A DNA stretch of 51,854 nucleotides, taken from sequence record MK962751; one strand, written 5' to 3'. This document shows positions 1 through 51,784 of this stretch, one piece after another (positions within the stretch are counted from its first letter, which is position 1; each line of letters begins with the position of its first letter). The stretch is from Shigella phage JK16. The notes below the pieces were generated by a model. That model was not told where the DNA came from. It saw only the letters and a program-made list of their open reading frames with translations, and did not search any database. A program made the translations under genes and the position numbers.

Positions 1-930
1 TTATAGCAGTGATTCGGGCTTGTAGAGTTTTCTTTCTACTCCCTGTTTAAAATTATCGTTAACAGGCATCATTATGTCAAGTCCTCTTTCCTCTGCCGCG
101 ATTATCACATCACGATCATCTTTCCGGCAGACTACGCGCATTCTTCTTTCTCCTTTATATCTATGCGCAACCATTTCAAGATTTGAAGGAGTAAAACAGG
201 CCCACACCTCTTGACCAGTTGATAAATGAACATGCTGAGAATCAACCCAATCAAGGCACAAATAGATCGTCTTATCTGTACTACCTGTTTTAACAACAGA
301 TCCGCGCGTGTAGTCGCGAGCTAAAAACCAATCCTTTCCATCCTCATCAATGAAAAGCACGTTACACATTTCATCATCCAGCCCGTCATCATGCACCAGG
401 TGACAAGGTAGCGCGTGAATGTATCGACCATCCTTGACGCCGCAATCATAATGACAATCTTCCGGCGGATATATCCCCTCATAAACGCTTAAAGGTGTGC
501 GATCGAATTTTAATGTTTTTGCCATCACTTTTTCGCAACATTCATGACTTGCCTGTTTCCCGAACGAGTAACCAGAAGAACGCGAAGCGCGTTTGTTTGC
601 TCTGATCCTGTAATCTTGTGGCACTTTTCCGAGGAAGCGGCCCAAAATGTTGATGGCCTCGCTGTAAGGTTCGCCAGTTAATTTCATTAACCAACCGATC
701 CCCGTGTCGTTGCCGCACACGTTGCAGATCGCGCCGCCGTCGCCCTCTTCATTTAGCTTATCAGTCCATCTAAAACGATCCTTACCGCCGCAGTGTGGGC
801 AAGGTTGATGCTTTTTGTTGAAAACATCGCTATGCAGTCCGCAAATGCTTTGTAGTGCTTCACGCCATAACCCCTTCATATATGGCAAAACATCTTCTTT
901 CTGATAGGTCATAAAGTTTTCAGTATTCAT
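1..930 (-). CDS. DNA primase (zinc-ribbon plus Toprim-like region)
   Basis: CPHCGG...CNVCG zinc-binding motif followed by acidic Toprim-like segment (VVCRKDDRDVIIAAEERGLD); start chosen at MNTENF with GAGG RBS; longer ORF to 1008 would overlap upstream gene. Confidence 0.65.
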   Translation of the reverse strand: MNTENFMTYQKEDVLPYMKGLWREALQSICGLHSDVFNKKHQPCPHCGGKDRFRWTDKLNEEGDGGAICNVCGNDTGIGWLMKLTGEPYSEAINILGRFLGKVPQDYRIRANKRASRSSGYSFGKQASHECCEKVMAKTLKFDRTPLSVYEGIYPPEDCHYDCGVKDGRYIHALPCHLVHDDGLDDEMCNVLFIDEDGKDWFLARDYTRGSVVKTGSTDKTIYLCLDWVDSQHVHLSTGQEVWACFTPSNLEMVAHRYKGERRMRVVCRKDDRDVIIAAEERGLDIMMPVNDNFKQGVERKLYKPESLL

Positions 931-985: not shown

Positions 986-1462
986 TTAGCTATTCGTGCT
1001 GTTATCACCTTTGTAGAATCGTCCGCCTGGTTCGTAGTCTGAATTTTTGACTACGCGCAACATATCGTATTTGTCGCAACGGGTAGTAAGAGGCTTACCG
1101 TTAGAATCAAACCGCAGATCTGGACGACAAAATGATGCGCGGTATCCTTTGCATCCATTATATTTGTAGTCGTTATGCACCTTTTGTGCTCCAGCGGCTG
1201 AAATCATACCACGCTTTCGCCACTGGTTAACGACTTGCTGAGATACGCGCAGACGTCGAGCCATAGCAGGAACGCCGCCGTAATACTCGATCAGAATGTC
1301 AAGGCGAGATTTCAGGCTTGCTTTTACCTCATCTCGCAGGATAAGAAATCCGGTTCGGTGTTTTCGTGGTTTTTTGTCTTTACCTCGTCGCGTTCCGTTG
1401 TTACCGTTAATAGTGCGCTTGTCGATCTCACCCGTAGATACTGCAATTCGTGCATCTTTCAT
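986..1462 (-). CDS. putative DNA-binding protein with Cro/YdaS-like helix-turn-helix
   Basis: Segment GGVPAMARRLRVSQQVVNQWRKRG resembles Cro/YdaS HTH; GAGGTGA RBS before start. Confidence 0.45.
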   Translation of the reverse strand: MKDARIAVSTGEIDKRTINGNNGTRRGKDKKPRKHRTGFLILRDEVKASLKSRLDILIEYYGGVPAMARRLRVSQQVVNQWRKRGMISAAGAQKVHNDYKYNGCKGYRASFCRPDLRFDSNGKPLTTRCDKYDMLRVVKNSDYEPGGRFYKGDNSTNS

Positions 1463-11404: not shown

Positions 11405-11448
11405 GATTATGCCAGGTTTTTACACCTGGCTTTTAACAAAAAGTGCTA
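11405..11448 (-). promoter_or_regulatory. motif-class promoter, minus strand (motif, hairpin CCAGGTG..ACCTGG, ATAATC)
   Basis: -10-like hexamer 19 nt downstream of motif. Confidence 0.45.
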
Positions 11449-12156
11449 TTTTGAGTTTGACTCAAATACGGCGCGAGCAAATCCGCGCGGAGTGAGGGAG
11501 CGGATCATCTTTGTGCGTGATGAATTGCCGCCAGTTTTGGCCCAGCCTGGATTATCTTTGTCTTTCTCTTTCGGCAGGATTAAAGCGCGTGGAGGAATAA
11601 CAAAGCCGTTGCCAGTCCAGAGGCATGTTTTCTTAAAGTAGCGATCCCGCGCCGGAATAATATCAGGGAAGTCGGGATGTTTATCATCTTCCGGCAGATA
11701 GCCAGCGTAATCGCACGGATGGAACGTATAATCAGGCTTACGCCATAACGTTGACAACTTGCCAACCGGATTTTCGATCATGTAAGGAACACCGAAATAA
11801 TCAGCTATATCAGCCGCGATTCTGCAAGTGTCGGCGGCCTCATCCTGGAACGATGGATTCTCAAGGCGTTTTTTGGCCCAATGGCGAGATCCGCTATTTG
11901 CAAGGTCGGTGCAAGGAGGGAACGCCATAATAAAATCAGGATTGCCCCACTCATTATTGATTGCCTTAACATAAAAAGCATCATCAATCCAGACGTTAAC
12001 GTATTCGATATTCTCATGCTGTATGCGCACTGACTGGTAATCACCGTGATCGCCGCCGTCAGCATTAAAGCAAATGCACTTATATCCATTATCAGCCCAA
12101 TCTTTAACGGCTTTACCAGATCCATCAAATAGGGAGAATATTAAACCTTTATACAT
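11446..12156 (-). CDS. DNA cytosine-5 methyltransferase-like protein (short, no obvious target-recognition domain)
   Basis: Motif I-like FSLFDGSGK, motif IV-like FPPCTDLANSG (PCT rather than PCQ), motif VI-like MIENPVG, C-terminal RSLTPRGFARAVF. Confidence 0.5.
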   Translation of the reverse strand: MYKGLIFSLFDGSGKAVKDWADNGYKCICFNADGGDHGDYQSVRIQHENIEYVNVWIDDAFYVKAINNEWGNPDFIMAFPPCTDLANSGSRHWAKKRLENPSFQDEAADTCRIAADIADYFGVPYMIENPVGKLSTLWRKPDYTFHPCDYAGYLPEDDKHPDFPDIIPARDRYFKKTCLWTGNGFVIPPRALILPKEKDKDNPGWAKTGGNSSRTKMIRSLTPRGFARAVFESNSK

Positions 12157-12166
12157 CGTCATTACC

Positions 12167-12391
12167 TCAAAACGGAAAACAGCGCGGACAACCAGGATCG
12201 AAATCGCATCCACAATCATTAACAATCATAGTGGGATCTGCAAATATTGCGCTTGATTCAAGATCCATATCCATATCACCTAAAGCCTCATCAAGACTCT
12301 TAATTTTATATGCCACTTCAAGCGCCGCCTCTTTATTTAGTCCGGCATCTTCTGCCATTTGAAGGCGCTCAAAAAATCCTTCTTGACTCAT
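12167..12391 (-). CDS. hypothetical acidic protein
   Basis: 74 aa ORF. Confidence 0.4.
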   Translation of the reverse strand: MSQEGFFERLQMAEDAGLNKEAALEVAYKIKSLDEALGDMDMDLESSAIFADPTMIVNDCGCDFDPGCPRCFPF

Positions 12392-14090: not shown

Positions 14091-14320
14091 ACATCATTGA
14101 TAAAATCAGCACGGCCCTTAATGTTGCTGATGTGGAACGTCTTTTCAGCGTACAGGCCATCACCTTCAATCACGATCATTACGCGAGTCGGTTTATTCAC
14201 GGGCGCACACGAAAAGAGTGGTCGCGCCGGAAGAAATTTAGTAGCCACATCCAGGTTAGCCCTGGCGGCCCTGCAAAACGCCTCCGCCAGATCCAAATCA
14301 TTTTCGGTAATCACCGCCAT
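14054..14320 (-). CDS. hypothetical protein
   Basis: 88 aa ORF. Confidence 0.4.
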   Translation of the reverse strand: MAVITENDLDLAEAFCRAARANLDVATKFLPARPLFSCAPVNKPTRVMIVIEGDGLYAEKTFHISNIKGRADFINDVCLLQEKKKCWM

Positions 14321-14592
14321 TACTTCTTGATCTCCTTACTGATAAATTTCAGCACCTGGCGCAAGAAAACTTCGTTGTTGATAGTCGCTGGCAATTCTTC
14401 TTTCACTTCTTGCGGCAGATAGATATTGCCGTGCCAGGTCAAGCAATCGTAGTTGATACGATAAGAGCAAAGCCACTCGCAATCGTTATCTGCTTCCCAA
14501 ATGCAGAGTTGCAGAACATCGCCAAAATCTTCAACAGTCAGATCCAGACCGTGACGCTTAGCGAAATTGAAAGTGGTTTTGCTGATGTTCAT
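14320..14592 (-). CDS. hypothetical protein (first gene of minus-strand cluster)
   Basis: 90 aa ORF downstream of motif promoter. Confidence 0.45.
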   Translation of the reverse strand: MNISKTTFNFAKRHGLDLTVEDFGDVLQLCIWEADNDCEWLCSYRINYDCLTWHGNIYLPQEVKEELPATINNEVFLRQVLKFISKEIKK

Positions 14593-14627
14593 TTACTATC
14601 TCCTGAGCGGTTCGTTTCGATGTGTGT

Positions 14628-14670
14628 AATGTACCCGATCAGGCGGCCTGAGTTTTAACAAAAAGTGCTA
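14628..14670 (-). promoter_or_regulatory. motif-class promoter driving the minus-strand cluster (motif, 18 nt, TACATT)
   Basis: No gene upstream on minus strand, so this copy cannot be a terminator. Confidence 0.45.
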
Positions 14671-14694
14671 TTTGACGGTTAGCACCAGGATTGT

Positions 14695-14795
14695 GATCGA
14701 AATAATCAAAAGTAATCATTCGTAATCAAATCACGTCAAAATGATGATTGCATTTGCAAATTTGATGAGAAAAGTAATCACGTTTAATCATTGGT
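14695..14795. repeat. iteron-like cluster of (G)TAATCA repeats
   Basis: Five direct TAATCA copies plus inverted TGATGATT and TTTGCAAA palindrome in the divergent control region. Confidence 0.4.
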
Positions 14796-15210
14796 TGCAG
14801 GGGAGATAGTGAAACCTTCCCCTCTTGCCTCACTTTCCCGCCTGGCTGTCAGTGGTTGTTATGTTCCGTTCCCGCCTGTTCTTTTGTTGACCTTCCGCAA
14901 AATACGATAACAAAAAATAACAAACAATACCTATATAATACATTGAAAAATAAGGATTATTTATTTATATGTATCTATATATTATCTTTTGTTATCTTGG
15001 TTATTGTGGTATTTGGTGGGGGTATATAGTTTTTGTGTATCTATATGTGTGTATGGGTATGTAGGGGCATATATATCTATATGGCACTTTCCGCGAGAAA
15101 ACTTCGATAACAGCCAATGATAACATTGATTTATAAGGAAAAATAACGCCAATATTGTTATTGTGCCACCATATAAAATTGATAAAACACGCGGGAACAA
15201 GAAAAAACAG

Positions 15211-15239
15211 TTGACACATTAAATAGCATTATTGATAAT
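15211..15239 (+). promoter_or_regulatory. sigma70-type promoter, copy 1 (TTGACA, 17 nt, GATAAT)
   Basis: Consensus -35, 17 nt spacer, near-consensus -10, 30 nt upstream of ATG. Confidence 0.6.
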
Positions 15240-15268
15240 GCCGACACCTAACAACCAGGAGGTAGAAA

Positions 15269-15475
15269 ATGAGCGAGCAATCATTAACTGACACGCTGCG
15301 CCGTGCAGCTATTATGCTGGCTAATGGCGAGGAAGAGGCGATCAAGATTCCTGACGCGTATTTGCAGGTCCACATGTTCGGCAAGAAGTCGGCAAGCAAT
15401 CCGGCGGCCTACATTCGCCAGATCATGAGTCGAGTTCCAGAAGTCGCCGAGCGTTCCCGCCTGTTCTTTTGTTGA
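15269..15475 (+). pseudogene. truncated duplicate of the 5-prime part of the first early gene
   Basis: First 61 codons identical to the 15854 gene, then runs out of the repeat unit into a short unrelated tail. Confidence 0.6.
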
Positions 15476-15795
15476 CCTTCCGCAAAATACGATAACAAAA
15501 AATAACAAACAATACCTATATAATACATTGAAAAATAAGGATTATTTATTTATATGTATCTATATATTATCTTTTGTTATCTTGGTTATTGTGGTATTTG
15601 GTGGGGGTATATAGTTTTTGTGTATCTATATGTGTGTATGGGTATGTAGGGGCATATATATCTATATGGCACTTTCCGCGAGAAAACTTCGATAACAGCC
15701 AATGATAACATTGATTTATAAGGAAAAATAACGCCAATATTGTTATTGTGCCACCATATAAAATTGATAAAACACGCGGGAACAAGAAAAAACAG

Positions 15796-15824
15796 TTGAC
15801 ACATTAAATAGCATTATTGATAAT
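15796..15824 (+). promoter_or_regulatory. sigma70-type promoter, copy 2 (TTGACA, 17 nt, GATAAT)
   Basis: Identical to copy 1, upstream of intact gene. Confidence 0.6.
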
Positions 15825-15853
15825 GCCGACACCTAACAACCAGGAGGTAGAAA

Positions 15854-16318
15854 ATGAGCGAGCAATCATTAACTGACACGCTGCGCCGTGCAGCTATTAT
15901 GCTGGCTAATGGCGAGGAAGAGGCGATCAAGATTCCTGACGCGTATTTGCAGGTCCACATGTTCGGCAAGAAGTCGGCAAGCAATCCGGCGGCCTACATT
16001 CGCCAGATCATGAGTCGAGTTCCAGAAGTCGCCGAGCGGGGGCGCGTATCCGTTACCCGTGGAGTTTACGGGCCGGAAGATGAAAACTTCGGTAGCACTT
16101 TCTACGAGGTGCGCATTGTTGAAGGACGTCGCAAGGTTTACAACAAAGAGGCACTGGAAAGGGCAGTACGCCAGGCTAAGCGCAAGGTTGCAGAGGCGAT
16201 CATTGATATGTCACCAAACCTAGCAAACTATGCGCCGGAAGAGTATGAAACATTATCAAAGGCCGTCGCTGACTTTCACGCGATGATCAAAAAAACTTTC
16301 CTGGAGGATGAGCAATGA
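15854..16318 (+). CDS. hypothetical early protein
   Basis: 154 aa; AGGAGG RBS; first gene after strong promoter. Confidence 0.55.
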   Translation: MSEQSLTDTLRRAAIMLANGEEEAIKIPDAYLQVHMFGKKSASNPAAYIRQIMSRVPEVAERGRVSVTRGVYGPEDENFGSTFYEVRIVEGRRKVYNKEALERAVRQAKRKVAEAIIDMSPNLANYAPEEYETLSKAVADFHAMIKKTFLEDEQ

Positions 16319-24509: not shown

Positions 24510-24521
24510 TTGCCAGTTGTT

Positions 24522-24530
24522 TGGTATAAT
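24522..24530 (+). promoter_or_regulatory. extended -10 promoter (TGgTATAAT) for the structural operon
   Basis: TGnTATAAT directly after terminator, 28 nt upstream of terS start; no good -35. Confidence 0.45.
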
Positions 24531-24558
24531 CAGGCATCTAACCAAAGGAGGATTAACA

Positions 24559-25086
24559 ATGGCTAAAAACGTTGAGCCTGCTGTAAAGGCATTAAATTTC
24601 AAAGAGTTATATAATAAAACTTATGGCGATATTGTCACGCTAAACAACCGCCACAAGTACACGCCGGAACAGGTTTTTGATATGGCGATCCGCTATTTCA
24701 CTTGGGCAGAAGAGAATCACATCCAGGCGGCTGAAACTGCTTCCTTTCAGGGTGACGTGTACGAGAGCAGAGTTTACAAGCCTCGCGTTTTCACGGTTAA
24801 CGGATTCAGCTTGTATCTCGGCGTGACTGAGGCTGCCGTAAGCAAATGGCGTAAAGAGCCTGGATTCTGCGATGTGATGGAGTTTGTTGATAAAGTAATT
24901 TACGAGCAAAAATTCCAGCTTGCGGCAAATAACATGATTAATGCTGGATTTATCGGTAAAGAGATCGGCGTAGAGAAGCCAGCAACAGTGAGCGTTGAAG
25001 CTAGCGCGGCAGCTAATGCAAGCATTGACGCAGTAACTGCCGATGAGGTGAAAGAGGCTGTTATTGATATTCTGGAGCAACTTTAA
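24559..25086 (+). CDS. terminase small subunit
   Basis: Position immediately upstream of terminase large subunit; AAAGGAGG RBS; size and charge profile. Confidence 0.55.
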   Translation: MAKNVEPAVKALNFKELYNKTYGDIVTLNNRHKYTPEQVFDMAIRYFTWAEENHIQAAETASFQGDVYESRVYKPRVFTVNGFSLYLGVTEAAVSKWRKEPGFCDVMEFVDKVIYEQKFQLAANNMINAGFIGKEIGVEKPATVSVEASAAANASIDAVTADEVKEAVIDILEQL

Positions 25087-26654
25087 TGATCATATGGGAA
25101 GATTTGACGGCGGCGCAAAAGCGAGCCATTAAAGAAATCAGTGAGCATTCATTCGAAAAGATGATCAGAATCTGGTTTCAGTTATTGCAGGGGCAAAAAT
25201 TCCAGAGCAACTGGCATTTTAGCTTATTGTGCAGTGAGGTAGAGAAGATCATCAATGGAGAGTCGCAGAATGTGATTTTCAACATTACGCCAGGTAGCGG
25301 TAAGACTGAGATTTTCTCGATCCACATGTCACCCTACGCGTCATTGAAAAGTCGGAAGGTGAGAAACCTTAACCTTTCGTTTAGTGATGGACTTGTCCAG
25401 CAAAACAGCAACAGGATAAAGGAGATTATCGGTTCTCCTGAGTGGCAAGAGCTATGGCCAGGAAAACTGGCAAAGGCGAGCGCAAAAGATCTCATAGTTA
25501 CGGATGGCGGCAAGGTTAAATTGCAAGTTAACTCACGTTCTATTGGCGGACAGGTAACAGGTTTGCGTGGCGGCTATATGGACGATGGTTTTACTGGTAT
25601 GCTGGTTCTGGACGATCCAGACAAGCCGGATGATATGCTTTCTAAGGTCAAGCGTGAGGCGATCCACATGCGGTTAAAAAACACAGTGCGATCGCGTCGA
25701 ATGAAAGACACTACGCCGATTGTTATGGTGCAACAGCGACTACACGTTAATGATTCCACCTGGTTCATGCTTAATGGCGGTATGGGCGGTATTGAGTTTA
25801 AAGTTGTGAGCATTCCTGCGCTGGTTACGAAAGAATACCGCGAAACGCTTCCTGATTGGTTGAAGCCTGAATTTGATCGTGATGTGTTGTCAAGTAAGCC
25901 AGTGATGATAGATGGCGTTGCTCATTATTCATTTTGGCCTGCGAAGGAAAGCGCGGAGGAATTGCTTGCATTGCGCAATGCAGATCCTTATACGTTCGCC
26001 AGTCAGTACCAACAGCAACCCATCGCGCTTGGCGGCAACGTGTTTAAAACAGAGTGGTTCCAGTATTACGGCAGCGGCGAAAAATGCGCACTTCCTAAAC
26101 CGGATCGCTTTGAATACACATTTATTACTGGTGATACCGCGCAGAAGGCCGGAGAGCTTAACGACTATTCAGTTTTTTGTTATTGGGGGATGTATAAGAA
26201 TCGCGTTTACTTCATTGATGGCATTCGCGGAAAGTGGGAAGCGCCGGATCTTGAATTAAATTTTATTGCCTTCGTTAATCAGTGCTGGAAGCGCAATAAG
26301 GAGTGTGGCAGCTTGCGACGTATCCACATTGAGGATAAGGCCAGCGGCACGGGTTTGATTCAGGGGGCCAAAAAGAAGATCCCGATTGATATAAATCCCG
26401 TTCAGCGAAGCAATGACAAGGTAACGCGAGCAATGGACGCCGCGCCAGTAATGAGGGCCGGACGTGTGGCACTGCCAGAAAGTCATCCCATGTTACCTGA
26501 GATACTGGCAGAGGTTGCAGCGTTCACTTTTGACGATTCTCATCCCCATGATGATATTGTCGATAATATAGTTGATGCTGTTAACGTCGAAATGAACTTG
26601 GCTGATGATCCGGTAGCAAGGATGAAAAAGCTGGCTGGTCTACGCAATAAATAG
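25086..26654 (+). CDS. terminase large subunit
   Basis: ATPase P-loop-like ITPGSGKTE, acidic Walker B-like MLVLDDPD, C-terminal nuclease-like acidic residues; 522 aa. Confidence 0.8.
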   Translation: MIIWEDLTAAQKRAIKEISEHSFEKMIRIWFQLLQGQKFQSNWHFSLLCSEVEKIINGESQNVIFNITPGSGKTEIFSIHMSPYASLKSRKVRNLNLSFSDGLVQQNSNRIKEIIGSPEWQELWPGKLAKASAKDLIVTDGGKVKLQVNSRSIGGQVTGLRGGYMDDGFTGMLVLDDPDKPDDMLSKVKREAIHMRLKNTVRSRRMKDTTPIVMVQQRLHVNDSTWFMLNGGMGGIEFKVVSIPALVTKEYRETLPDWLKPEFDRDVLSSKPVMIDGVAHYSFWPAKESAEELLALRNADPYTFASQYQQQPIALGGNVFKTEWFQYYGSGEKCALPKPDRFEYTFITGDTAQKAGELNDYSVFCYWGMYKNRVYFIDGIRGKWEAPDLELNFIAFVNQCWKRNKECGSLRRIHIEDKASGTGLIQGAKKKIPIDINPVQRSNDKVTRAMDAAPVMRAGRVALPESHPMLPEILAEVAAFTFDDSHPHDDIVDNIVDAVNVEMNLADDPVARMKKLAGLRNK

Positions 26655-45204: not shown

Positions 45205-45483
45205 TCACCCCCAAAAAGTATATATATATCTTGAATCAGATCCAGAAAGCCCACTCCATGTAACGGTGTCGCCACTTACCCCTAAGTTTGGTGCGCCAGG
45301 GTCGCCACCACGCCAGGAATTCATGCCAACATATATTGCTTTCAATGATTTACCTGGCGGCCTGTTTTGGTAAGTCTTGCTACCTGATGGCTGAGTGAAT
45401 TTATCAAGGAAGAAAACAGGCGTTAAAAGACCTGTAACTTCCCTTCCTCGATCGTCATATATTGCATAACCATATTGCGCCAT
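45205..45483 (-). CDS. hypothetical protein
   Basis: 92 aa ORF. Confidence 0.4.
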   Translation of the reverse strand: MAQYGYAIYDDRGREVTGLLTPVFFLDKFTQPSGSKTYQNRPPGKSLKAIYVGMNSWRGGDPGAPNLGVSGDTVTWSGLSGSDSRYIYTFWG

Positions 45484-45758
45484 TAATTACACCTCAAATC
45501 AATAAATTTACTTTCATTTTGCCAACGGTTGATAAATTTAACTTCTTTATTGTCAACGCTCAACCTGTATTGCTTTTGGCTGAATCTGTTTTCTCGGACT
45601 GCATTAATTTTGACTTCATGTAATCCGTTAACAGGGAATGTTTTAACGTTAAATTTTGCCGTGCAATCGATCTCCTTGAAGTTGCCAGTAGGCGACGCTG
45701 CGCATCCTGTCAGAGCGGCTACAGTGGCGATAACTGCGATTAACTTTTTCATCTTCAA
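45483..45758 (-). CDS. lipoprotein, candidate superinfection-exclusion protein (Llp/Cor-like)
   Basis: Signal peptide with lipobox LTGC; about 90 aa with Cys near both ends; AAGGAG RBS; next to tail fibre gene J. Confidence 0.5.
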   Translation of the reverse strand: MKMKKLIAVIATVAALTGCAASPTGNFKEIDCTAKFNVKTFPVNGLHEVKINAVRENRFSQKQYRLSVDNKEVKFINRWQNESKFIDLRCN

Positions 45759-45783: not shown

Positions 45784-45825
45784 ACTATACACGATCTTGG
45801 GCATCGCGTTTAGCAAAAAGTGCTA
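45784..45825 (-). promoter_or_regulatory. motif-class promoter, minus strand (TAGCACTTTTTGCTAAACG, 17 nt, TATAGT)
   Basis: No minus-strand gene upstream; drives lipoprotein operon. Confidence 0.45.
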
Positions 45826-45889
45826 TTTGTTATTTTTTGTTTTCCGGTGTTATCGAATTTAAGACGGCGTAAATTTAGCGCAAAATTTA

Positions 45890-46190
45890 GACAACATAAG
45901 ATCAATAAACAATCAATAAAATAGATATATACATATAAAATCAATAGTTTATTTATTTATGTATGTATATTTGTTTTTTCTTGTTATCTGCGTTTCTTGT
46001 GGTTTTGGTTGTTTGTGGTGATTTTTCTTTCTGAGTATCTGTATGTGCCATCATTCATGTGTATGTATATAATCCGGCGTATCTGAGAGAACAGGGGAAC
46101 AAGAAAAATAACACACATTAATCATTAACTTATGAGTCAAATCTGTTTTCTTGCCATCTGAGAACGTTTAGAAAACAGAAAAAACAAAAC
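45890..46190. repeat. AT-rich non-coding region paralogous to 14925-15250
   Basis: Shared blocks TTATTTATTTATGTATGTAT, TTGTTATCT, TTGTGG repeats, GGGAACAAGAAAAA, ACACATTAA. Confidence 0.55.
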
Positions 46191-46195
46191 AGCTA

Positions 46196-46223
46196 TTGAC
46201 TAAATCAACCAAATGGCTACAAT
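46196..46223 (+). promoter_or_regulatory. sigma70-type promoter for recombination operon (TTGACT, 16 nt, TACAAT)
   Basis: Near-consensus hexamers 30 nt upstream of exonuclease start. Confidence 0.55.
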
Positions 46224-46253
46224 GCACGCATAAAGCAACAAGGAGCATTAAAG

Positions 46254-49514: not shown

Positions 49515-49793
49515 TTAAGCCCATTCTCTAATAGGCTGATCTAACTCAACCACGTATCCATTAAAAATTACGGCATCAAACTTATCATCAATGATTCGCA
49601 CATTGACGAAATAGCCGTCGTTCTTTCGCGCAATCTCATCGCCATCGTCAGATCGTGCAATTACTGTGTAAGTATTGCCGATCACATCGAGCAGGATTGT
49701 ATCCTGAATGGATTCGTTTTCGTTCCATTCAATTTCTTCCAGAAAGGCGGAAAACTCCGCCTTGTCTACAAATTTCAGTGTTAAATCACGCAT
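49515..49793 (-). CDS. hypothetical protein (possible fibre assembly factor)
   Basis: Start overlaps fibre stop (TAATG). Confidence 0.4.
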   Translation of the reverse strand: MRDLTLKFVDKAEFSAFLEEIEWNENESIQDTILLDVIGNTYTVIARSDDGDEIARKNDGYFVNVRIIDDKFDAVIFNGYVVELDQPIREWA

Positions 49794-51748
49794 TATACAA
49801 TTTCCCCCAATTGATGATCTGTTAGTGCCTTGTGCCATATACGGAAGTTTCTAACGTGCCCGAAAAGATGACGTTCGCCCGTAGTTGTTTGTCCGCCAAT
49901 CCTTATAGTAGCCGTTGATACTATATATCTCCATTCCGTTTTTGTTTCGCTTGATATTCTGGCATTACTTACACAACAAGTATTGTAATCACTCTTTACT
50001 CTCATTCCTATGATCATCTTTTTTAGTTTCGCATTCTCGTTAACCCTTCTGTTTGATTTACCTATATCGCAATAAGGGAATCCATCACTATCGCCCTTGG
50101 CAGATCCGAAAGCAAGAATAATTTCCGCACCAGATTGATGACCTCCAGAACCAAAAACACGAGGCGCAGCACTTGGCGTCATACTCCAGTTTTTATGAGC
50201 TTCCACAAGCACTGTAAACGGCAAATTGTAAAGGTTGTTTTTTATTGGCAATGTAACCATATCGCTTGCCCTTGTTGTCGGACTTTCATTAGTTATAATG
50301 AATGATGAAGCGCAAGATCCAACCTCTACTTGAGGAGTTGTTAAATCCATAAAGCTATTTTCATCAAAAACTTCTCCTTGTTTATTAACGACCTGTATTA
50401 CCCCCCTAATGGAAGTTGATTCATCAGTAACTTTGTAAACTATTTCTGCAAAAATCCATTCCCCGTCTATGGTAGCGTTCTTTAGCACTATGTTTTTTGC
50501 GTCAACTCCAGAAGTTGCCACCCCTAAGTTATCGCAATCAATAATAGCAGAAGCAACAGAAGATAAAGGATCTCCCTTGTCAAATCTTGCTGCAAATCTT
50601 ACATTTTTCCCCTTAGCCCTAAAAGATATTGTAACTCCATCACCCTTTACAACTGCAATATTATTTGTAGTAAGTCCAGCTATAATAGTGTAAGAGCCTA
50701 CGCCACCTAAATATTTCCCTGGTTTAAATGTTGCATACTTAAACCCCCTTTCATCAGTCTTAGTTTCACCTCTTTCTAATCCTGTATTTGGATTCCATGA
50801 TTCAGGCTTATTTGAATTTACAAAATAGTTTGTTCTCTGCCCTTCAATCAAAAGACCATCCTTTTCAAATCTAGGTTCATCAATAGCAGCATCAGTAAGC
50901 AACCCAGACTTATTAATGTAAGTAGCGGTTGATGCACGTTTAAACTTAACAATCTTGTCACCTGGCATCGTGATCTCATCATCACCTATGACAATCTTTT
51001 TGTATGACGGCGAGAATCCGGTGATCATATCCAGGGAATCATTAAATGGTATCCACACGTCAGGTAGAGGCTGCAATAAATCTTTGTAAGGTTCTGCGGC
51101 CTGTTTTGCGTATTCCTCCGCTTGATCTCGCGCACTTTCAGCGCCTGCCTTTGCGGTGTTCGCAGCATCACGCGCAGTTTCAGCGCCTTTTCTTGCAGTT
51201 TCAGCGCCAGTCTTTGCAGTGTTTGCAGCGTCGCGCGCGGATTCAGCGGCAGCCTTTGCAGTGTCAGCACCTTTCTTGCTATTCTCTGCATTTGTTGCGC
51301 TTGTCTTTGCGTTATTCTCGCTAGTTTTAGCTGCCTTCTGGCTTGCTGCGGCTGCGTCAGCATTTGTCTTTACGTCTTCCTGGATCTTCTGTAGCTTATC
51401 CCAATCAAAATCCTTGATGATCTCAATAAATCCAGCAAGCTCCGACTCCTTTCCCTGGTAATAACGCAACGTTTCCGCTACGTCTTGCGCAAGACCGTCA
51501 ACCGTTAACGAGTCATGAAGCAAGATCAGGTAATTTGTCTTCTGTACTACCGCGCCGCCAGTAGTAATTGCGCGAATGCTTGTATCGCTAATCACTTCTG
51601 TAATCACAGCAGCTTGCAAAGGTTGAGCAAGAAAGAAAATAGTTGCGCCTGGGCGAATCAAGGTTAATTGCTCACGCCATTTTGTACCGTAACCAGTTAC
51701 ATAACCTTGCGCGTCCATAGACGCTTGGCCTTGTCTGTAAATCGCCAT
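49793..51748 (-). CDS. tail fibre protein with Ala-rich repeat region and C-terminal lectin-like domain
   Basis: N-terminal fibre-anchor-like segment, 10-11 residue Ala-rich repeats (ARDAANTAK.GAE.AR), C-terminal GHVRNFRIWHKALTDHQLGEI resembling LamG/ConA-like lectin folds; AGGAGG RBS. Confidence 0.7.
   Translation of the reverse strand: MAIYRQGQASMDAQGYVTGYGTKWREQLTLIRPGATIFFLAQPLQAAVITEVISDTSIRAITTGGAVVQKTNYLILLHDSLTVDGLAQDVAETLRYYQGKESELAGFIEIIKDFDWDKLQKIQEDVKTNADAAAASQKAAKTSENNAKTSATNAENSKKGADTAKAAAESARDAANTAKTGAETARKGAETARDAANTAKAGAESARDQAEEYAKQAAEPYKDLLQPLPDVWIPFNDSLDMITGFSPSYKKIVIGDDEITMPGDKIVKFKRASTATYINKSGLLTDAAIDEPRFEKDGLLIEGQRTNYFVNSNKPESWNPNTGLERGETKTDERGFKYATFKPGKYLGGVGSYTIIAGLTTNNIAVVKGDGVTISFRAKGKNVRFAARFDKGDPLSSVASAIIDCDNLGVATSGVDAKNIVLKNATIDGEWIFAEIVYKVTDESTSIRGVIQVVNKQGEVFDENSFMDLTTPQVEVGSCASSFIITNESPTTRASDMVTLPIKNNLYNLPFTVLVEAHKNWSMTPSAAPRVFGSGGHQSGAEIILAFGSAKGDSDGFPYCDIGKSNRRVNENAKLKKMIIGMRVKSDYNTCCVSNARISSETKTEWRYIVSTATIRIGGQTTTGERHLFGHVRNFRIWHKALTDHQLGEIV
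51100..51350 (-). repeat. in-frame tandem DNA repeats (~33 bp units) inside tail fibre gene
   Basis: Repeated GCAGTTTCAGCGCC / CTTTGCAGTG units; all six frames open here in the ORF track. Confidence 0.7.
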
Positions 51749-51765
51749 TTGTAAAATCCTCCTAA

Positions 51766-51784
51766 ATAGCACTTTTTGCTAATG
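51766..51784 (+). promoter_or_regulatory. motif copy (TAGCACTTTTTGCTAATGA) at window end
   Basis: Plus-orientation copy with no plus-strand gene downstream in the window. Confidence 0.3.

What the first reader, a model, noticed from the sequence alone, without database searches (positions are those of the whole stretch)
14695..15250. Divergent control region with iteron-like TAATCA repeats and AT-rich repeat blocks, paralogous to 45890-46190
Between the divergently transcribed minus cluster and the early plus operon there are five direct (G)TAATCA copies with inverted partners (14695-14795), then an AT-rich block with TATCTATAT, TTGTTATCT and TTGTGG repeats. A diverged paralogous block sits upstream of the recombination operon promoter. 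Both precede the only two canonical sigma70 promoters in the window. These could be UP-element or curved-DNA enhancers, host factor binding sites, or replication origin sequences.
Basis: seen in the sequence. Interest (0 to 1): 0.5.

Follow-up and report, generated by a model that had tools for sequence, protein, structure and literature searches.

The report
T1-like phage pac and early-promoter region
This non-coding stretch of a T1-like E. coli phage most likely holds the site where DNA packaging starts (the TAATCA repeats), next to one of two co-evolving AT-rich modules that sit upstream of the phage's early promoters and are the best unmapped candidates for its replication origins.

Summary
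The window is a T1-like coliphage (Drexlerviridae, Warwickvirus-like).

**Confirmed:**
- Five direct TAATCA copies at 10-bp phasing (14703-14790), the only such cluster in the window.
- An AT-rich block that is truly paralogous to 45831-46195.

the 'inverted partners' and 'only two sigma70 promoters' claims.

an exact 585-bp tandem duplication (14867-15451 = 15452-16036) of AT block, promoter and gene 5' end. It is absent from all relatives and may be an assembly artefact.

**Reinterpretation:**
- **TAATCA block = probable pac site.** The T1 and TLS reference genomes are opened inside the equivalent TGATT/AATCA repeat cluster (TLS pac was mapped by restriction digests). The block is unique in the genome, predicted strongly curved, and present in 59 records, the same number that have a >=95%-identical small terminase.
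- **AT blocks = a family-wide pair.** Each lies upstream of a sigma70 early promoter. Each contains the genome's least stable duplex, phased lineage-specific short repeats and a UP-like A-tract. The two copies co-evolve within lineages.

The AT blocks' function is unresolved. I favour an early-promoter nucleoprotein module; twin replication origins is the main rival. No DnaA boxes, RNA family or conserved ORF are present.

The parts
14628..14633 (-). -10 box (TACATT) of the leftward 21-mer-type promoter that drives gene 14320-14592
   Evidence: All 18 copies of the 21-mer in the window are followed at a fixed distance by tAtaaT; coordinates.
14651..14673 (-). T1-family 21-nt intergenic repeat (AAATAGCACTTTTTGTTAAAAC), at about -36 to -56 of the leftward promoter
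   Evidence: The element is described in TLS as a repeat of unknown function (PMC11447400).
14695..14795 (+). TAATCA repeat block, the proposed pac site. Five direct TAATCA copies (14703, 14713, 14723 | 14775, 14785) flank a central ATGATGATTG (14741-14751) and the palindrome ATTTGCAAAT (14752-14761).
   Evidence: Predicted curvature. The T1 and TLS records are opened in the positionally equivalent TGATT cluster. Present at >=96% identity in 59 records, the same number that have TerS >=95% identical.
14800..14824 (.). Imperfect GGGGAG...CCCCTC inverted repeat. The records of relatives XY3 and haarsle are opened here (equivalent to 14808/9 and ~14800).
   Evidence: The fold is not better than shuffles (z 0.18), so a structural role is unproven.
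14855..15210 (+). AT-rich block, copy 1a. Sub-elements: TGTT cluster 14857-14888; A-rich arm with ATAACA x2 (14906-14922); CCTATATAAT 14930-14939; most meltable core 14932-14981 (TTATTTATTTAT at 14957); T-rich arm TTATC/GTTATC/GTTAT 14982-15005; C-poor G/T-rich stretch to ~15063; second TATATAT block 15064-15083; TTCCGCGAG 15089; GATAACA x2 at 15106 and 15119; A-tract 15186-15210.
15211..15239 (+). Sigma70-type early promoter TTGACA-17-GATAAT (copy 1a), followed by RBS AGGAGG at 15257 and ATG at 15269
14867..16038 (+). Exact tandem duplication, unit 585 bp (14867-15451 | 15452-16036, plus 2 nt CG shared at the junction)
   Evidence: The 14 closest relatives have a single copy. The junction is absent from the phage records and from IMG/VR.
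15269..15475 (+). Truncated DUF7174 ORF created by the duplication (61 native residues + 7 junction-encoded)
15440..15824 (+). AT-rich block copy 1b with its promoter (TTGACA-17-GATAAT at 15796-15824), identical to copy 1a
15854..16318 (+). Full-length first early gene (DUF7174, 154 aa). It is inherited together with the AT block as one mosaic module.
   Evidence: Pfam PF23796. It is only ~30% identical in swan01-type Warwickviruses, which share the TAATCA block at 97-99% identity.
45808..45826 (-). Leftward 21-mer of the second control region (drives the cor-like gene 45483-45758)
45831..46195 (+). AT-rich block, copy 2: core 45920-45969 (stability minimum), perfect IHF consensus AATCAATAGTTTA at 45939-45951, and the same TGTT/AACA orientation syntax as copy 1
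46196..46223 (+). Sigma70-type promoter TTGACT-16-TACAAT of the exonuclease VIII / Erf / SSB operon
   Evidence: It corresponds in position to the predicted P51 promoter of TLS.

Best explanation
The finding is a composite of three adjacent but separable elements at the pac-proximal end of a headful-packaging T1-like genome. (1) A leftward promoter of the T1-family type (21-mer at 14651-14673 plus a -10 box). (2) The TAATCA block (14695-14795), which I interpret as the pac site. In this model, phased, intrinsically bent short repeats are bound by the P22-gp3-like small terminase, and the first packaging cut falls in or just beside the central gap (about 14740-14810), with packaging proceeding rightward. 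(3) The AT-rich block (14855-15210), one of two paralogous upstream modules of the phage's sigma70 early promoters. Here a UP-like A-tract contacts RNA polymerase. Further upstream, arrays of AACA/TGTT words in a fixed orientation syntax, with an IHF-type site in some copies, assemble a protein-DNA complex around an extremely AT-rich core. That complex boosts or times early transcription from the DNA that enters the cell first. What is shown: the anatomy, the paralogy, family-wide conservation of the architecture, the stability minima, and the positional equivalence to the T1 and TLS termini. What is inferred: terminase binding, the cut position in this phage, and any effect on transcription.
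For: pac reading: T1's record is opened inside its TGATT cluster between the leftward 21-mer and the AT block, and 1-2800 is annotated as the terminal repeat. TLS pac was located by restriction mapping and position 1 set at AGATTT inside the same kind of cluster. The SU57 paper places the terminus and pac in this untranslated region. All three phages share a central ATGATGA motif, with the recorded T1 and TLS ends 8-9 nt downstream of it. Most genera examined have 6-9 TGATT/AATCA pentamers here against ~1.1 expected. The block is unique in the window and absent from the paralogous region. The 300-bp window at 14621 has the lowest predicted end-to-end ratio in the genome. TerS is Pfam GP3_package. 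The block occurs in 59 records and TerS is >=95% identical in 59 records, while the adjacent AT-block/DUF7174 module splits those phages into two types. AT-block reading: every copy in 6 lineages lies directly upstream of a sigma70-like promoter, with an A-tract abutting the -35. AACA/TGTT words are ~2-fold enriched (P 0.001-0.017) and have the same orientation syntax in both copies. The copies co-evolve within lineages (permutation P=1/720).
Against: No reads or virion-end data exist for this phage, so pac is assigned by positional homology only. Position 1 of T1 and TLS is approximate: the TLS authors chose AGATTT by resemblance to the P22 pac sequence. The dominant pentamer orientation is AATCA here but TGATT in T1, TLS and Henuseptimavirus, the blocks cannot be aligned between genera, and Hanrivervirus (3-4 pentamers) and Kyungwonvirus CS01 (1) show little or no enrichment. 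The match between TerS and the block may simply reflect genus membership. For the AT block, a 350-bp conserved architecture containing the genome's most meltable 50-100 bp, about 250 bp upstream of the promoter, is more than known UP or enhancer regions need and fits an origin equally well. The curvature parameters were recalled from memory.
Confidence: 0.5

Rival explanations
1. The two AT-rich blocks are the phage's replication origins. In this model the ultra-AT-rich core acts as a DNA-unwinding element, flanked by inverted arrays of lineage-specific short repeats bound by a phage-encoded initiator. It is opened with the help of negative supercoiling generated behind the two divergent promoters that flank each block. 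Precedents, from my own knowledge: the two-locus arrangements SPP1 oriL/oriR and P4 ori/crr, and activation of oriC by divergent gidA transcription.
For: The cores are the two global duplex-stability minima in this phage (z~4.5), in T1 (z 5.4-5.5) and in Rogunavirus e4/1c (z 4.7), well separated from the next regions. The repeats flank the core in inverted orientation and change with lineage: nnAACA in Tempevirinae, GTAACA/ATAGAC and CGATTAACA in Tunavirus, GTAAGAT in Webervirus, GATACG in Rogunavirus. The two copies co-evolve. Several cores carry a perfect IHF consensus. Each block lies between divergent promoters. No origin has been identified in TLS or SU57.
Against: The window has no exact DnaA box, and only one 1-mismatch site falls in the two regions. 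GATC is depleted there (1 per region against 5.9/kb genome-wide), unlike oriC. No initiator protein has been identified, and the fold of the co-inherited DUF7174 protein is inconclusive. The repeats are short and degenerate, and in T1 the two copies use different words. Every copy is rigidly coupled to a sigma70 promoter and A-tract, which a pure origin would not require. GC skew follows gene orientation and is uninformative. No similar block occurs in plasmids or E. coli chromosomes.
Confidence: 0.3
2. The TAATCA repeats are operators for a phage transcription regulator, for example the Cro/YdaS-like HTH protein encoded at 986-1462. In this model the protein binds one face of the helix upstream of the leftward promoter to switch the leftward gene cluster on or off. 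The repeats would have nothing to do with packaging.
For: The repeats are phased at 10 bp and lie at about -80 to -180 of the leftward promoter. The phage encodes an HTH regulator (annotated 'transcriptional regulator' in T1). The block is highly conserved for non-coding DNA (>=96% in 59 records).
Against: The paralogous second region has an equivalent leftward 21-mer promoter but no such block. The other ~16 promoters of this type in the window also lack it. The T1 and TLS termini fall in the equivalent cluster.
Confidence: 0.15
3. Both blocks are only generic AT-rich or curved DNA bound non-specifically by host nucleoid proteins such as H-NS or Fis, with no sequence-specific function.
For: High AT content, predicted curvature of the TAATCA block, and TCGATAAC words that partly resemble the H-NS nucleation motif as I recall it.
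Against: The order and orientation of sub-elements is conserved across six lineages that cannot be aligned to one another. There are sharply conserved islands such as CCTATAAyA and the TTATTTATTTAT core. The two copies co-evolve.
Confidence: 0.05

Closest known systems
pac sites of headful-packaging phages: P1 pac (hexamer repeats flanking the cut, IHF-assisted), SPP1 pacL/pacC/pacR (phased, bent DNA) and the mapped pac ends of T1 and TLS. The P1 and SPP1 details are from my own knowledge.
   Same: A cluster of short phased repeats split into two groups around a central gap, intrinsic bending, one copy per genome, a P22-gp3-like TerS, and the same position as the T1 and TLS termini.
   Different: The repeat word (TAATCA) and its orientation differ from T1 and TLS (TGATT). 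There is no GATC in the repeats, unlike P1. Unlike P22, the site is intergenic rather than inside the terminase gene. Cleavage is not shown for this phage.
Strong phage early promoters with UP elements and upstream factor sites (T5 and T4 early promoters, lambda pL with IHF sites; from my own knowledge, and cited as an analogy in PMC11447400)
   Same: A near-consensus sigma70 promoter with an A-tract directly upstream of the -35 and AT-rich DNA further upstream.
   Different: The conserved architecture extends ~350 bp, has an inverted-array syntax around an ultra-AT-rich core, and exists as two co-evolving copies.
Iteron plus DUE replication origins present as two loci (P4 ori/crr, SPP1 oriL/oriR; from my own knowledge)
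   Same: Two dispersed paralogous loci, short lineage-specific repeats in direct and inverted orientation, an adjacent AT-rich easily melted segment, and a P4-alpha-like primase in the family (T1 annotation).
   Different: The repeats are only 5-7 bp and degenerate. No origin-binding protein is known. The loci are intergenic and tied to promoters. No replication data exist.
The 21-nt intergenic repeat of T1-like phages (TLS paper, PMC11447400)
   Same: The copy at 14651-14673 matches the published consensus aaATAGCACnnnTTGnTAAAA and points in the direction of transcription.
   Different: It only borders the finding. Here each copy is shown to be followed by a -10 box.

Membership tests
pac site (terminase recognition and first-cut site of a headful phage) | The phage has a headful-type TerS/TerL system | tested here: met
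   24517-25086 matches Pfam GP3_package and 25086-26654 matches Terminase_6C. T1 and TLS are headful packagers.
pac site (terminase recognition and first-cut site of a headful phage) | Coincides with the end of the first packaged genome | not testable with these tools
   Shown only by positional equivalence: the T1 and TLS records are opened in the homologous repeat cluster. Virion-end reads for this phage are needed.
pac site (terminase recognition and first-cut site of a headful phage) | Single copy per genome | tested here: met
   It is the only 101-nt window with 5 TAATCA copies, and it is absent from the paralogous region.
pac site (terminase recognition and first-cut site of a headful phage) | Co-inherited with the cognate small terminase | tested here: inconclusive
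   59 records carry the block and 59 have TerS >=95% identical, but the record lists were not compared and both sets may simply equal the genus.
pac site (terminase recognition and first-cut site of a headful phage) | Bound and cut by terminase | not testable with these tools
   Biochemistry is required.
Iterons (17-22-bp direct repeats bound by a Rep initiator) | Repeat unit of about 17-22 bp, several copies, next to a rep gene | tested here: not met
   The TAATCA unit is 6-7 bp at a 10-bp period. The longest repeated unit is a 24-nt pair at 75% identity. No rep gene is adjacent.
Replication origin of the oriC/DnaA type | DnaA boxes and GATC clustering | tested here: not met
   The window has no exact DnaA box, and GATC occurs once per region against 5.9/kb genome-wide.
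Replication origin (generic DUE plus initiator sites) | An exceptionally unstable AT-rich segment | tested here: met
   The cores are the global stability minima here, in T1 and in e4/1c.
Replication origin (generic DUE plus initiator sites) | Repeated initiator-binding sites and a known initiator | tested here: inconclusive
Replication origin (generic DUE plus initiator sites) | Replication starts there | not testable with these tools
   Needs marker-frequency analysis, 2D gels or an autonomous-replication assay.
UP element of a sigma70 promoter | An A/T-rich tract at about -38 to -59, with a proximal A-tract next to the -35 | tested here: met
   aacaagaaaaaacag|TTGACA and cagaaaaaacaaaacagcta|TTGACT, conserved across genera. 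This is a sequence-level test only, and the consensus is from my own knowledge.
IHF binding site (WATCAANNNNTTR) | A full consensus match in the core | tested here: inconclusive
   Met in copy 2 (45939) and in slyngel, IsaakIselin, haarsle and AS5. Not met in the finding's own copy 1, which reads AAAATAAGGATTA.
Structured non-coding RNA | A match to a described RNA family | tested here: not met
   Rfam at E<=1 returns only a chance snoRNA hit at 22.9 bits against a 50-bit threshold, and nothing in copy 2.

The most novel reading that the evidence does not exclude
The two co-evolving AT-rich blocks are the long-unidentified replication origins of T1-like phages. In this reading they are a twin-origin system with lineage-specific mini-iterons around an unwinding element, fired by divergent early transcription, and one of them sits directly beside pac so that replication, early transcription and packaging initiation are clustered at one genome end.
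Probability: 0.3. Interest if true: 0.6.

Novelty: new variant of a known kind. Interest (0 to 1): 0.45.

Why it matters
T1 is one of the classical T phages, and Drexlerviridae are common laboratory contaminants and therapy candidates. Even so, their origin of replication is unknown, their pac site is only roughly placed, and their early-gene control is undescribed; the 2024 TLS reannotation reports finding no origin-like repeats anywhere in that genome.

This analysis gives exact coordinates for three testable elements:
- a candidate pac site with a P1/SPP1-like layout,
- a pair of family-wide, co-evolving upstream modules that are the best origin or early-enhancer candidates,
- evidence that the 21-nt repeats belong to promoters.

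It also flags a probable assembly artefact (or recent mutation) that would otherwise be annotated as an extra gene.

Tried and rejected
- **Rfam** on both regions: nothing credible.
- **Coding potential:** open frames in the blocks are low-complexity and not conserved in frame, strand or length between relatives. The tiny ORFs annotated there in JLBYU10 and AS5 are probably spurious.
- **Terminator or hairpin at 14800-14824:** no T-run, and the fold is no better than shuffles.
- **DnaA boxes, GATC clustering, Chi:** absent.
- **Fur-box, ArcA and Fis readings** of TAATCA and GATAACA were considered by eye against remembered consensus sequences and dropped. Matches were poor, the spacing of the repeats varies from 9 to 18 bp, and the words change between phages that infect hosts with near-identical regulators.
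- **The 7-2-7 palindrome over the -10 of the 15211 promoter** is not conserved in relatives.
- **GC skew:** follows gene orientation only.
- **Searches of E. coli genomes and plasmids** for either element: no match.
- **Literature searches** for T1-like origin mapping or transcriptomes: nothing found.
- **Record starts of XY3 and haarsle** at ~14800-14809: noted, but the haarsle authors did no terminus mapping, so this is weak evidence.

Full report
**Identity and context.** The window is a T1-like E. coli siphovirus. The region 14300-16400 matches Warwickvirus genomes (AV105, JLBYU10, atuna, tiwna) at ~98% identity.

The gene map from PHROGs and Pfam is:
- primase (1-1008, -) and two helicases;
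- a leftward cluster of small genes ending at 14592;
- the finding's non-coding gap;
- a rightward early cluster beginning with a DUF7174 gene, followed by polynucleotide kinase and dNMP kinase;
- P22-gp3-like TerS and TerL (24517-26654), then the structural genes;
- a leftward cor-like cluster ending at 45758;
- a second non-coding gap;
- the rightward exonuclease VIII / Erf / SSB operon.

**Checking the observation.** The five TAATCA copies are real. They all point the same way and are phased at 10 bp (starts 14703, 14713, 14723, 14775, 14785), and they form the only such cluster in 51.8 kb. The 'inverted partners' are weak: there is no TGATTA, only a 75%-complementary 20-mer pair and a 7-nt pair.

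The AT-rich block is truly paralogous to the second gap. The alignment score is 78 against 22+-2.8 for shuffles, and a profile built only from other phages' copy-1 blocks hits 45907-46186 at E=1.7e-13, with no further copy in the window. The TAATCA block is not part of that paralogy.

The 'only two canonical sigma70 promoters' claim is overstated. 15211 is an 11/12 match, but so are 48244(+) and 52-80(-), and 46196 is only 10/12. The spirit of the claim does agree with the TLS paper, which found only three intergenic sigma70-like promoters.

**A missed feature.** 14867-15453 is repeated exactly at 15452-16038. This is a 585-bp tandem duplication of the AT block, the promoter and the first 61 codons of the DUF7174 gene, and it leaves a truncated 68-aa ORF. 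All 14 closest relatives have one copy, and the junction is absent from the phage records and from IMG/VR.

The junction shares only CG. The record appears to have been rotated to a gene boundary, because position 1 is the primase stop codon. One ordinary explanation is therefore an untrimmed overlap between the ends of a circularised assembly, left inside the sequence after rotation. A recent real duplication is equally possible. I cannot decide between these without the reads.

**Anatomy from comparison.** Every Drexlerviridae genome examined has a 690-780-nt non-coding gap at this position: Warwick-, Hanriver-, Tls-, Henuseptima-, Kyungwon-, Tuna- and Rogunavirus. The gaps cannot be aligned between genera, but they keep the same order of elements:
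1. The leftward 21-mer.
2. A cluster of TGATT/AATCA-type short repeats.
3. CTGTTATCTTCTGTT-like words.
4. An A-rich arm with nnAACA words.
5. CCTATAAyA.
6. A TTATTTATTTATATGTAT-type core.
7. A T-rich arm with TGTTnn words.
8. A C-poor G/T-rich stretch.
9. A second TATATAT block.
10. TCCGnGAAAA.
11. Two or three direct nnAACA words.
12. An A-tract.
13. A sigma70 promoter.

The second gap, upstream of the recombination operon, has elements 3-13 in Hanriver-, Tls-, Henuseptima-, Tuna-, Weber- and Rogunavirus as well.

**The TAATCA block as pac.** The T1 reference record is opened inside its own TGATT cluster at exactly this position, and 1-2800 is annotated as the terminal repeat. The TLS authors located pac by restriction mapping and set position 1 at AGATTT, which lies inside the TLS TGATT cluster in the same gap. 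The SU57 paper also places the terminus and pac in this untranslated region.

T1, TLS and the window share a central ATGATGA(T)TG motif. The recorded T1 and TLS ends lie 8-9 nt beyond it. In the window the motif is at 14741-14751, in the 46-bp gap between the three left and two right TAATCA copies.

That layout resembles P1 pac and SPP1 pac as I know them: two groups of phased short repeats around a central cut region, on bent DNA. A wedge-model calculation, using parameters recalled from memory, ranks this block among the most curved DNA in the genome.

The block is found at >=96% identity in 59 records, the same number that have TerS >=95% identical. The AT-block/DUF7174 module, which starts only ~70 nt away, splits these phages into a 14-record type and a larger swan01 type, with DUF7174 only ~30% identical between them.

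Caveats:
- The T1 and TLS positions are approximate.
- The dominant pentamer orientation differs between lineages.
- Hanrivervirus (3-4 pentamers) and Kyungwonvirus CS01 (1) show little or no enrichment.
- The 59 = 59 match compares record counts, not record lists, and may reflect nothing more than genus membership.

**The AT blocks.** The cores (14932-14981 with its duplicate, and 45920-45969) are the least stable 50-mers of the whole genome (z~4.5; the next region is 3.8). The same holds in T1 (z 5.4-5.5, next 3.6) and in e4/1c (z 4.7, next 3.2).

AACA/TGTT words are about twofold enriched over dinucleotide shuffles in every Tempevirinae block (P 0.001-0.017). They follow the same orientation syntax in both copies, ending at the -35. 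Other lineages use other words: GTAACA/ATAGAC and CGATTAACA in T1, GTAAGAT in KP36, GATACG in e4/1c.

Copy 1 and copy 2 are more alike within a lineage than between lineages (mean score 74 against 42; permutation P=1/720). This means either gene conversion between the copies or co-evolution with a lineage-specific, probably phage-encoded, binding factor.

A perfect IHF consensus occupies the same core position in five blocks, including the window's copy 2, but not its copy 1. An A-tract resembling a proximal UP subsite abuts both -35 boxes.

There are no DnaA boxes, GATC is depleted, there is no Chi site, no Rfam family matches and no ORF is conserved. Neither element occurs in E. coli chromosomes or plasmids.

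**Mechanism.** I commit to the composite model: leftward 21-mer promoter, then pac, then an early-promoter upstream module. Overall confidence is about 0.5.

Within that model, the pac assignment of the TAATCA block is the better-supported half (about 0.55). The main rival for the AT blocks is twin replication origins (about 0.3). The two readings are not exclusive, because an unwinding element between divergent promoters could serve both.

No paper in the searchable library describes these blocks. The TLS reannotation states that no origin-type repeats were found anywhere in that genome.

**Verdict.** The interpretation needs splitting:
- The 'iteron-like' repeats are probably the packaging site, a known kind of element whose position is already roughly known in T1 and TLS.
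- The AT block is one of a conserved, co-evolving pair of undescribed function.

Interest is moderate: this gives exact, testable coordinates for pac and for the best origin candidates in a classical phage family.

Noticed in passing
window 14867-16038: Exact 585-bp tandem duplication of AT block, promoter and the 5' end of the DUF7174 gene. It creates a truncated 68-aa ORF (15269-15475). It is absent from all relatives and from IMG/VR. It is either a recent mutation or an untrimmed assembly overlap left inside the sequence after the genome was rotated (position 1 is the primase stop codon).
   Followed up: partly
window-wide: 1474, 3963, 5034, 8295(-), 10457(-), 11449(-), 13366(-), 14671(-), 16584, 18378, 19828, 21148, 22463, 45826(-) and others: Most copies of the T1-family 21-nt repeat (ATAGCACTTTTTGTTAAAA) are followed ~19-20 nt later by a conserved tAtaaT box, often with a GC-rich palindrome in the spacer. 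The 21-mer therefore sits at about -36 to -56 in place of a -35, like an activator-dependent or UP-type promoter. The TLS paper lists its function as an open question. Copies at 26651, 31294(-), 35048(-) and 51766 lack a clear -10.
   Followed up: partly
window ~14860 to ~16290: The AT block, promoter and DUF7174 gene form one mosaic module. Swan01-type Warwickviruses are 97-99% identical on both sides but carry a diverged block and a DUF7174 protein only ~30% identical. The left boundary lies within ~10 nt of the start of the duplication.
   Followed up: partly
window 14675-15270 and 45800-46250: GATC is strongly depleted in both control regions (1 site each), although the genome averages 5.9 GATC per kb and encodes a DNA methyltransferase (11446-12225).
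   Followed up: no
window 986-1462 (-): A Cro/YdaS-like HTH protein is encoded between the divergent primase and helicase genes (annotated 'transcriptional regulator' in T1 and e4/1c). It is a candidate binder of the 21-mers or of the AACA/TGTT arrays.
   Followed up: no
L005 and (MG0656xx records): More than a dozen records named 'Campylobacter phage' (UNVERIFIED) are Hanrivervirus-type T1-like genomes that carry these E. coli-phage control regions. They are probably contaminants or mislabelled.
   Followed up: no
L001 2926-3419; L022 349-786: Small ORFs annotated inside the non-coding blocks of JLBYU10 and AS5 are not conserved in other phages and look like over-annotation.
   Followed up: partly
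window 51132-51268: A 63-nt tandem repeat (2.2 copies, 78% matches) lies inside the tail-fibre gene 49793-51772.
   Followed up: no
L026 (T1) 170-215: T1 has a second 21-mer-like element (tttttagcaaaaagtgctat) between its TGATT cluster and its AT block. The window lacks this element.
   Followed up: no
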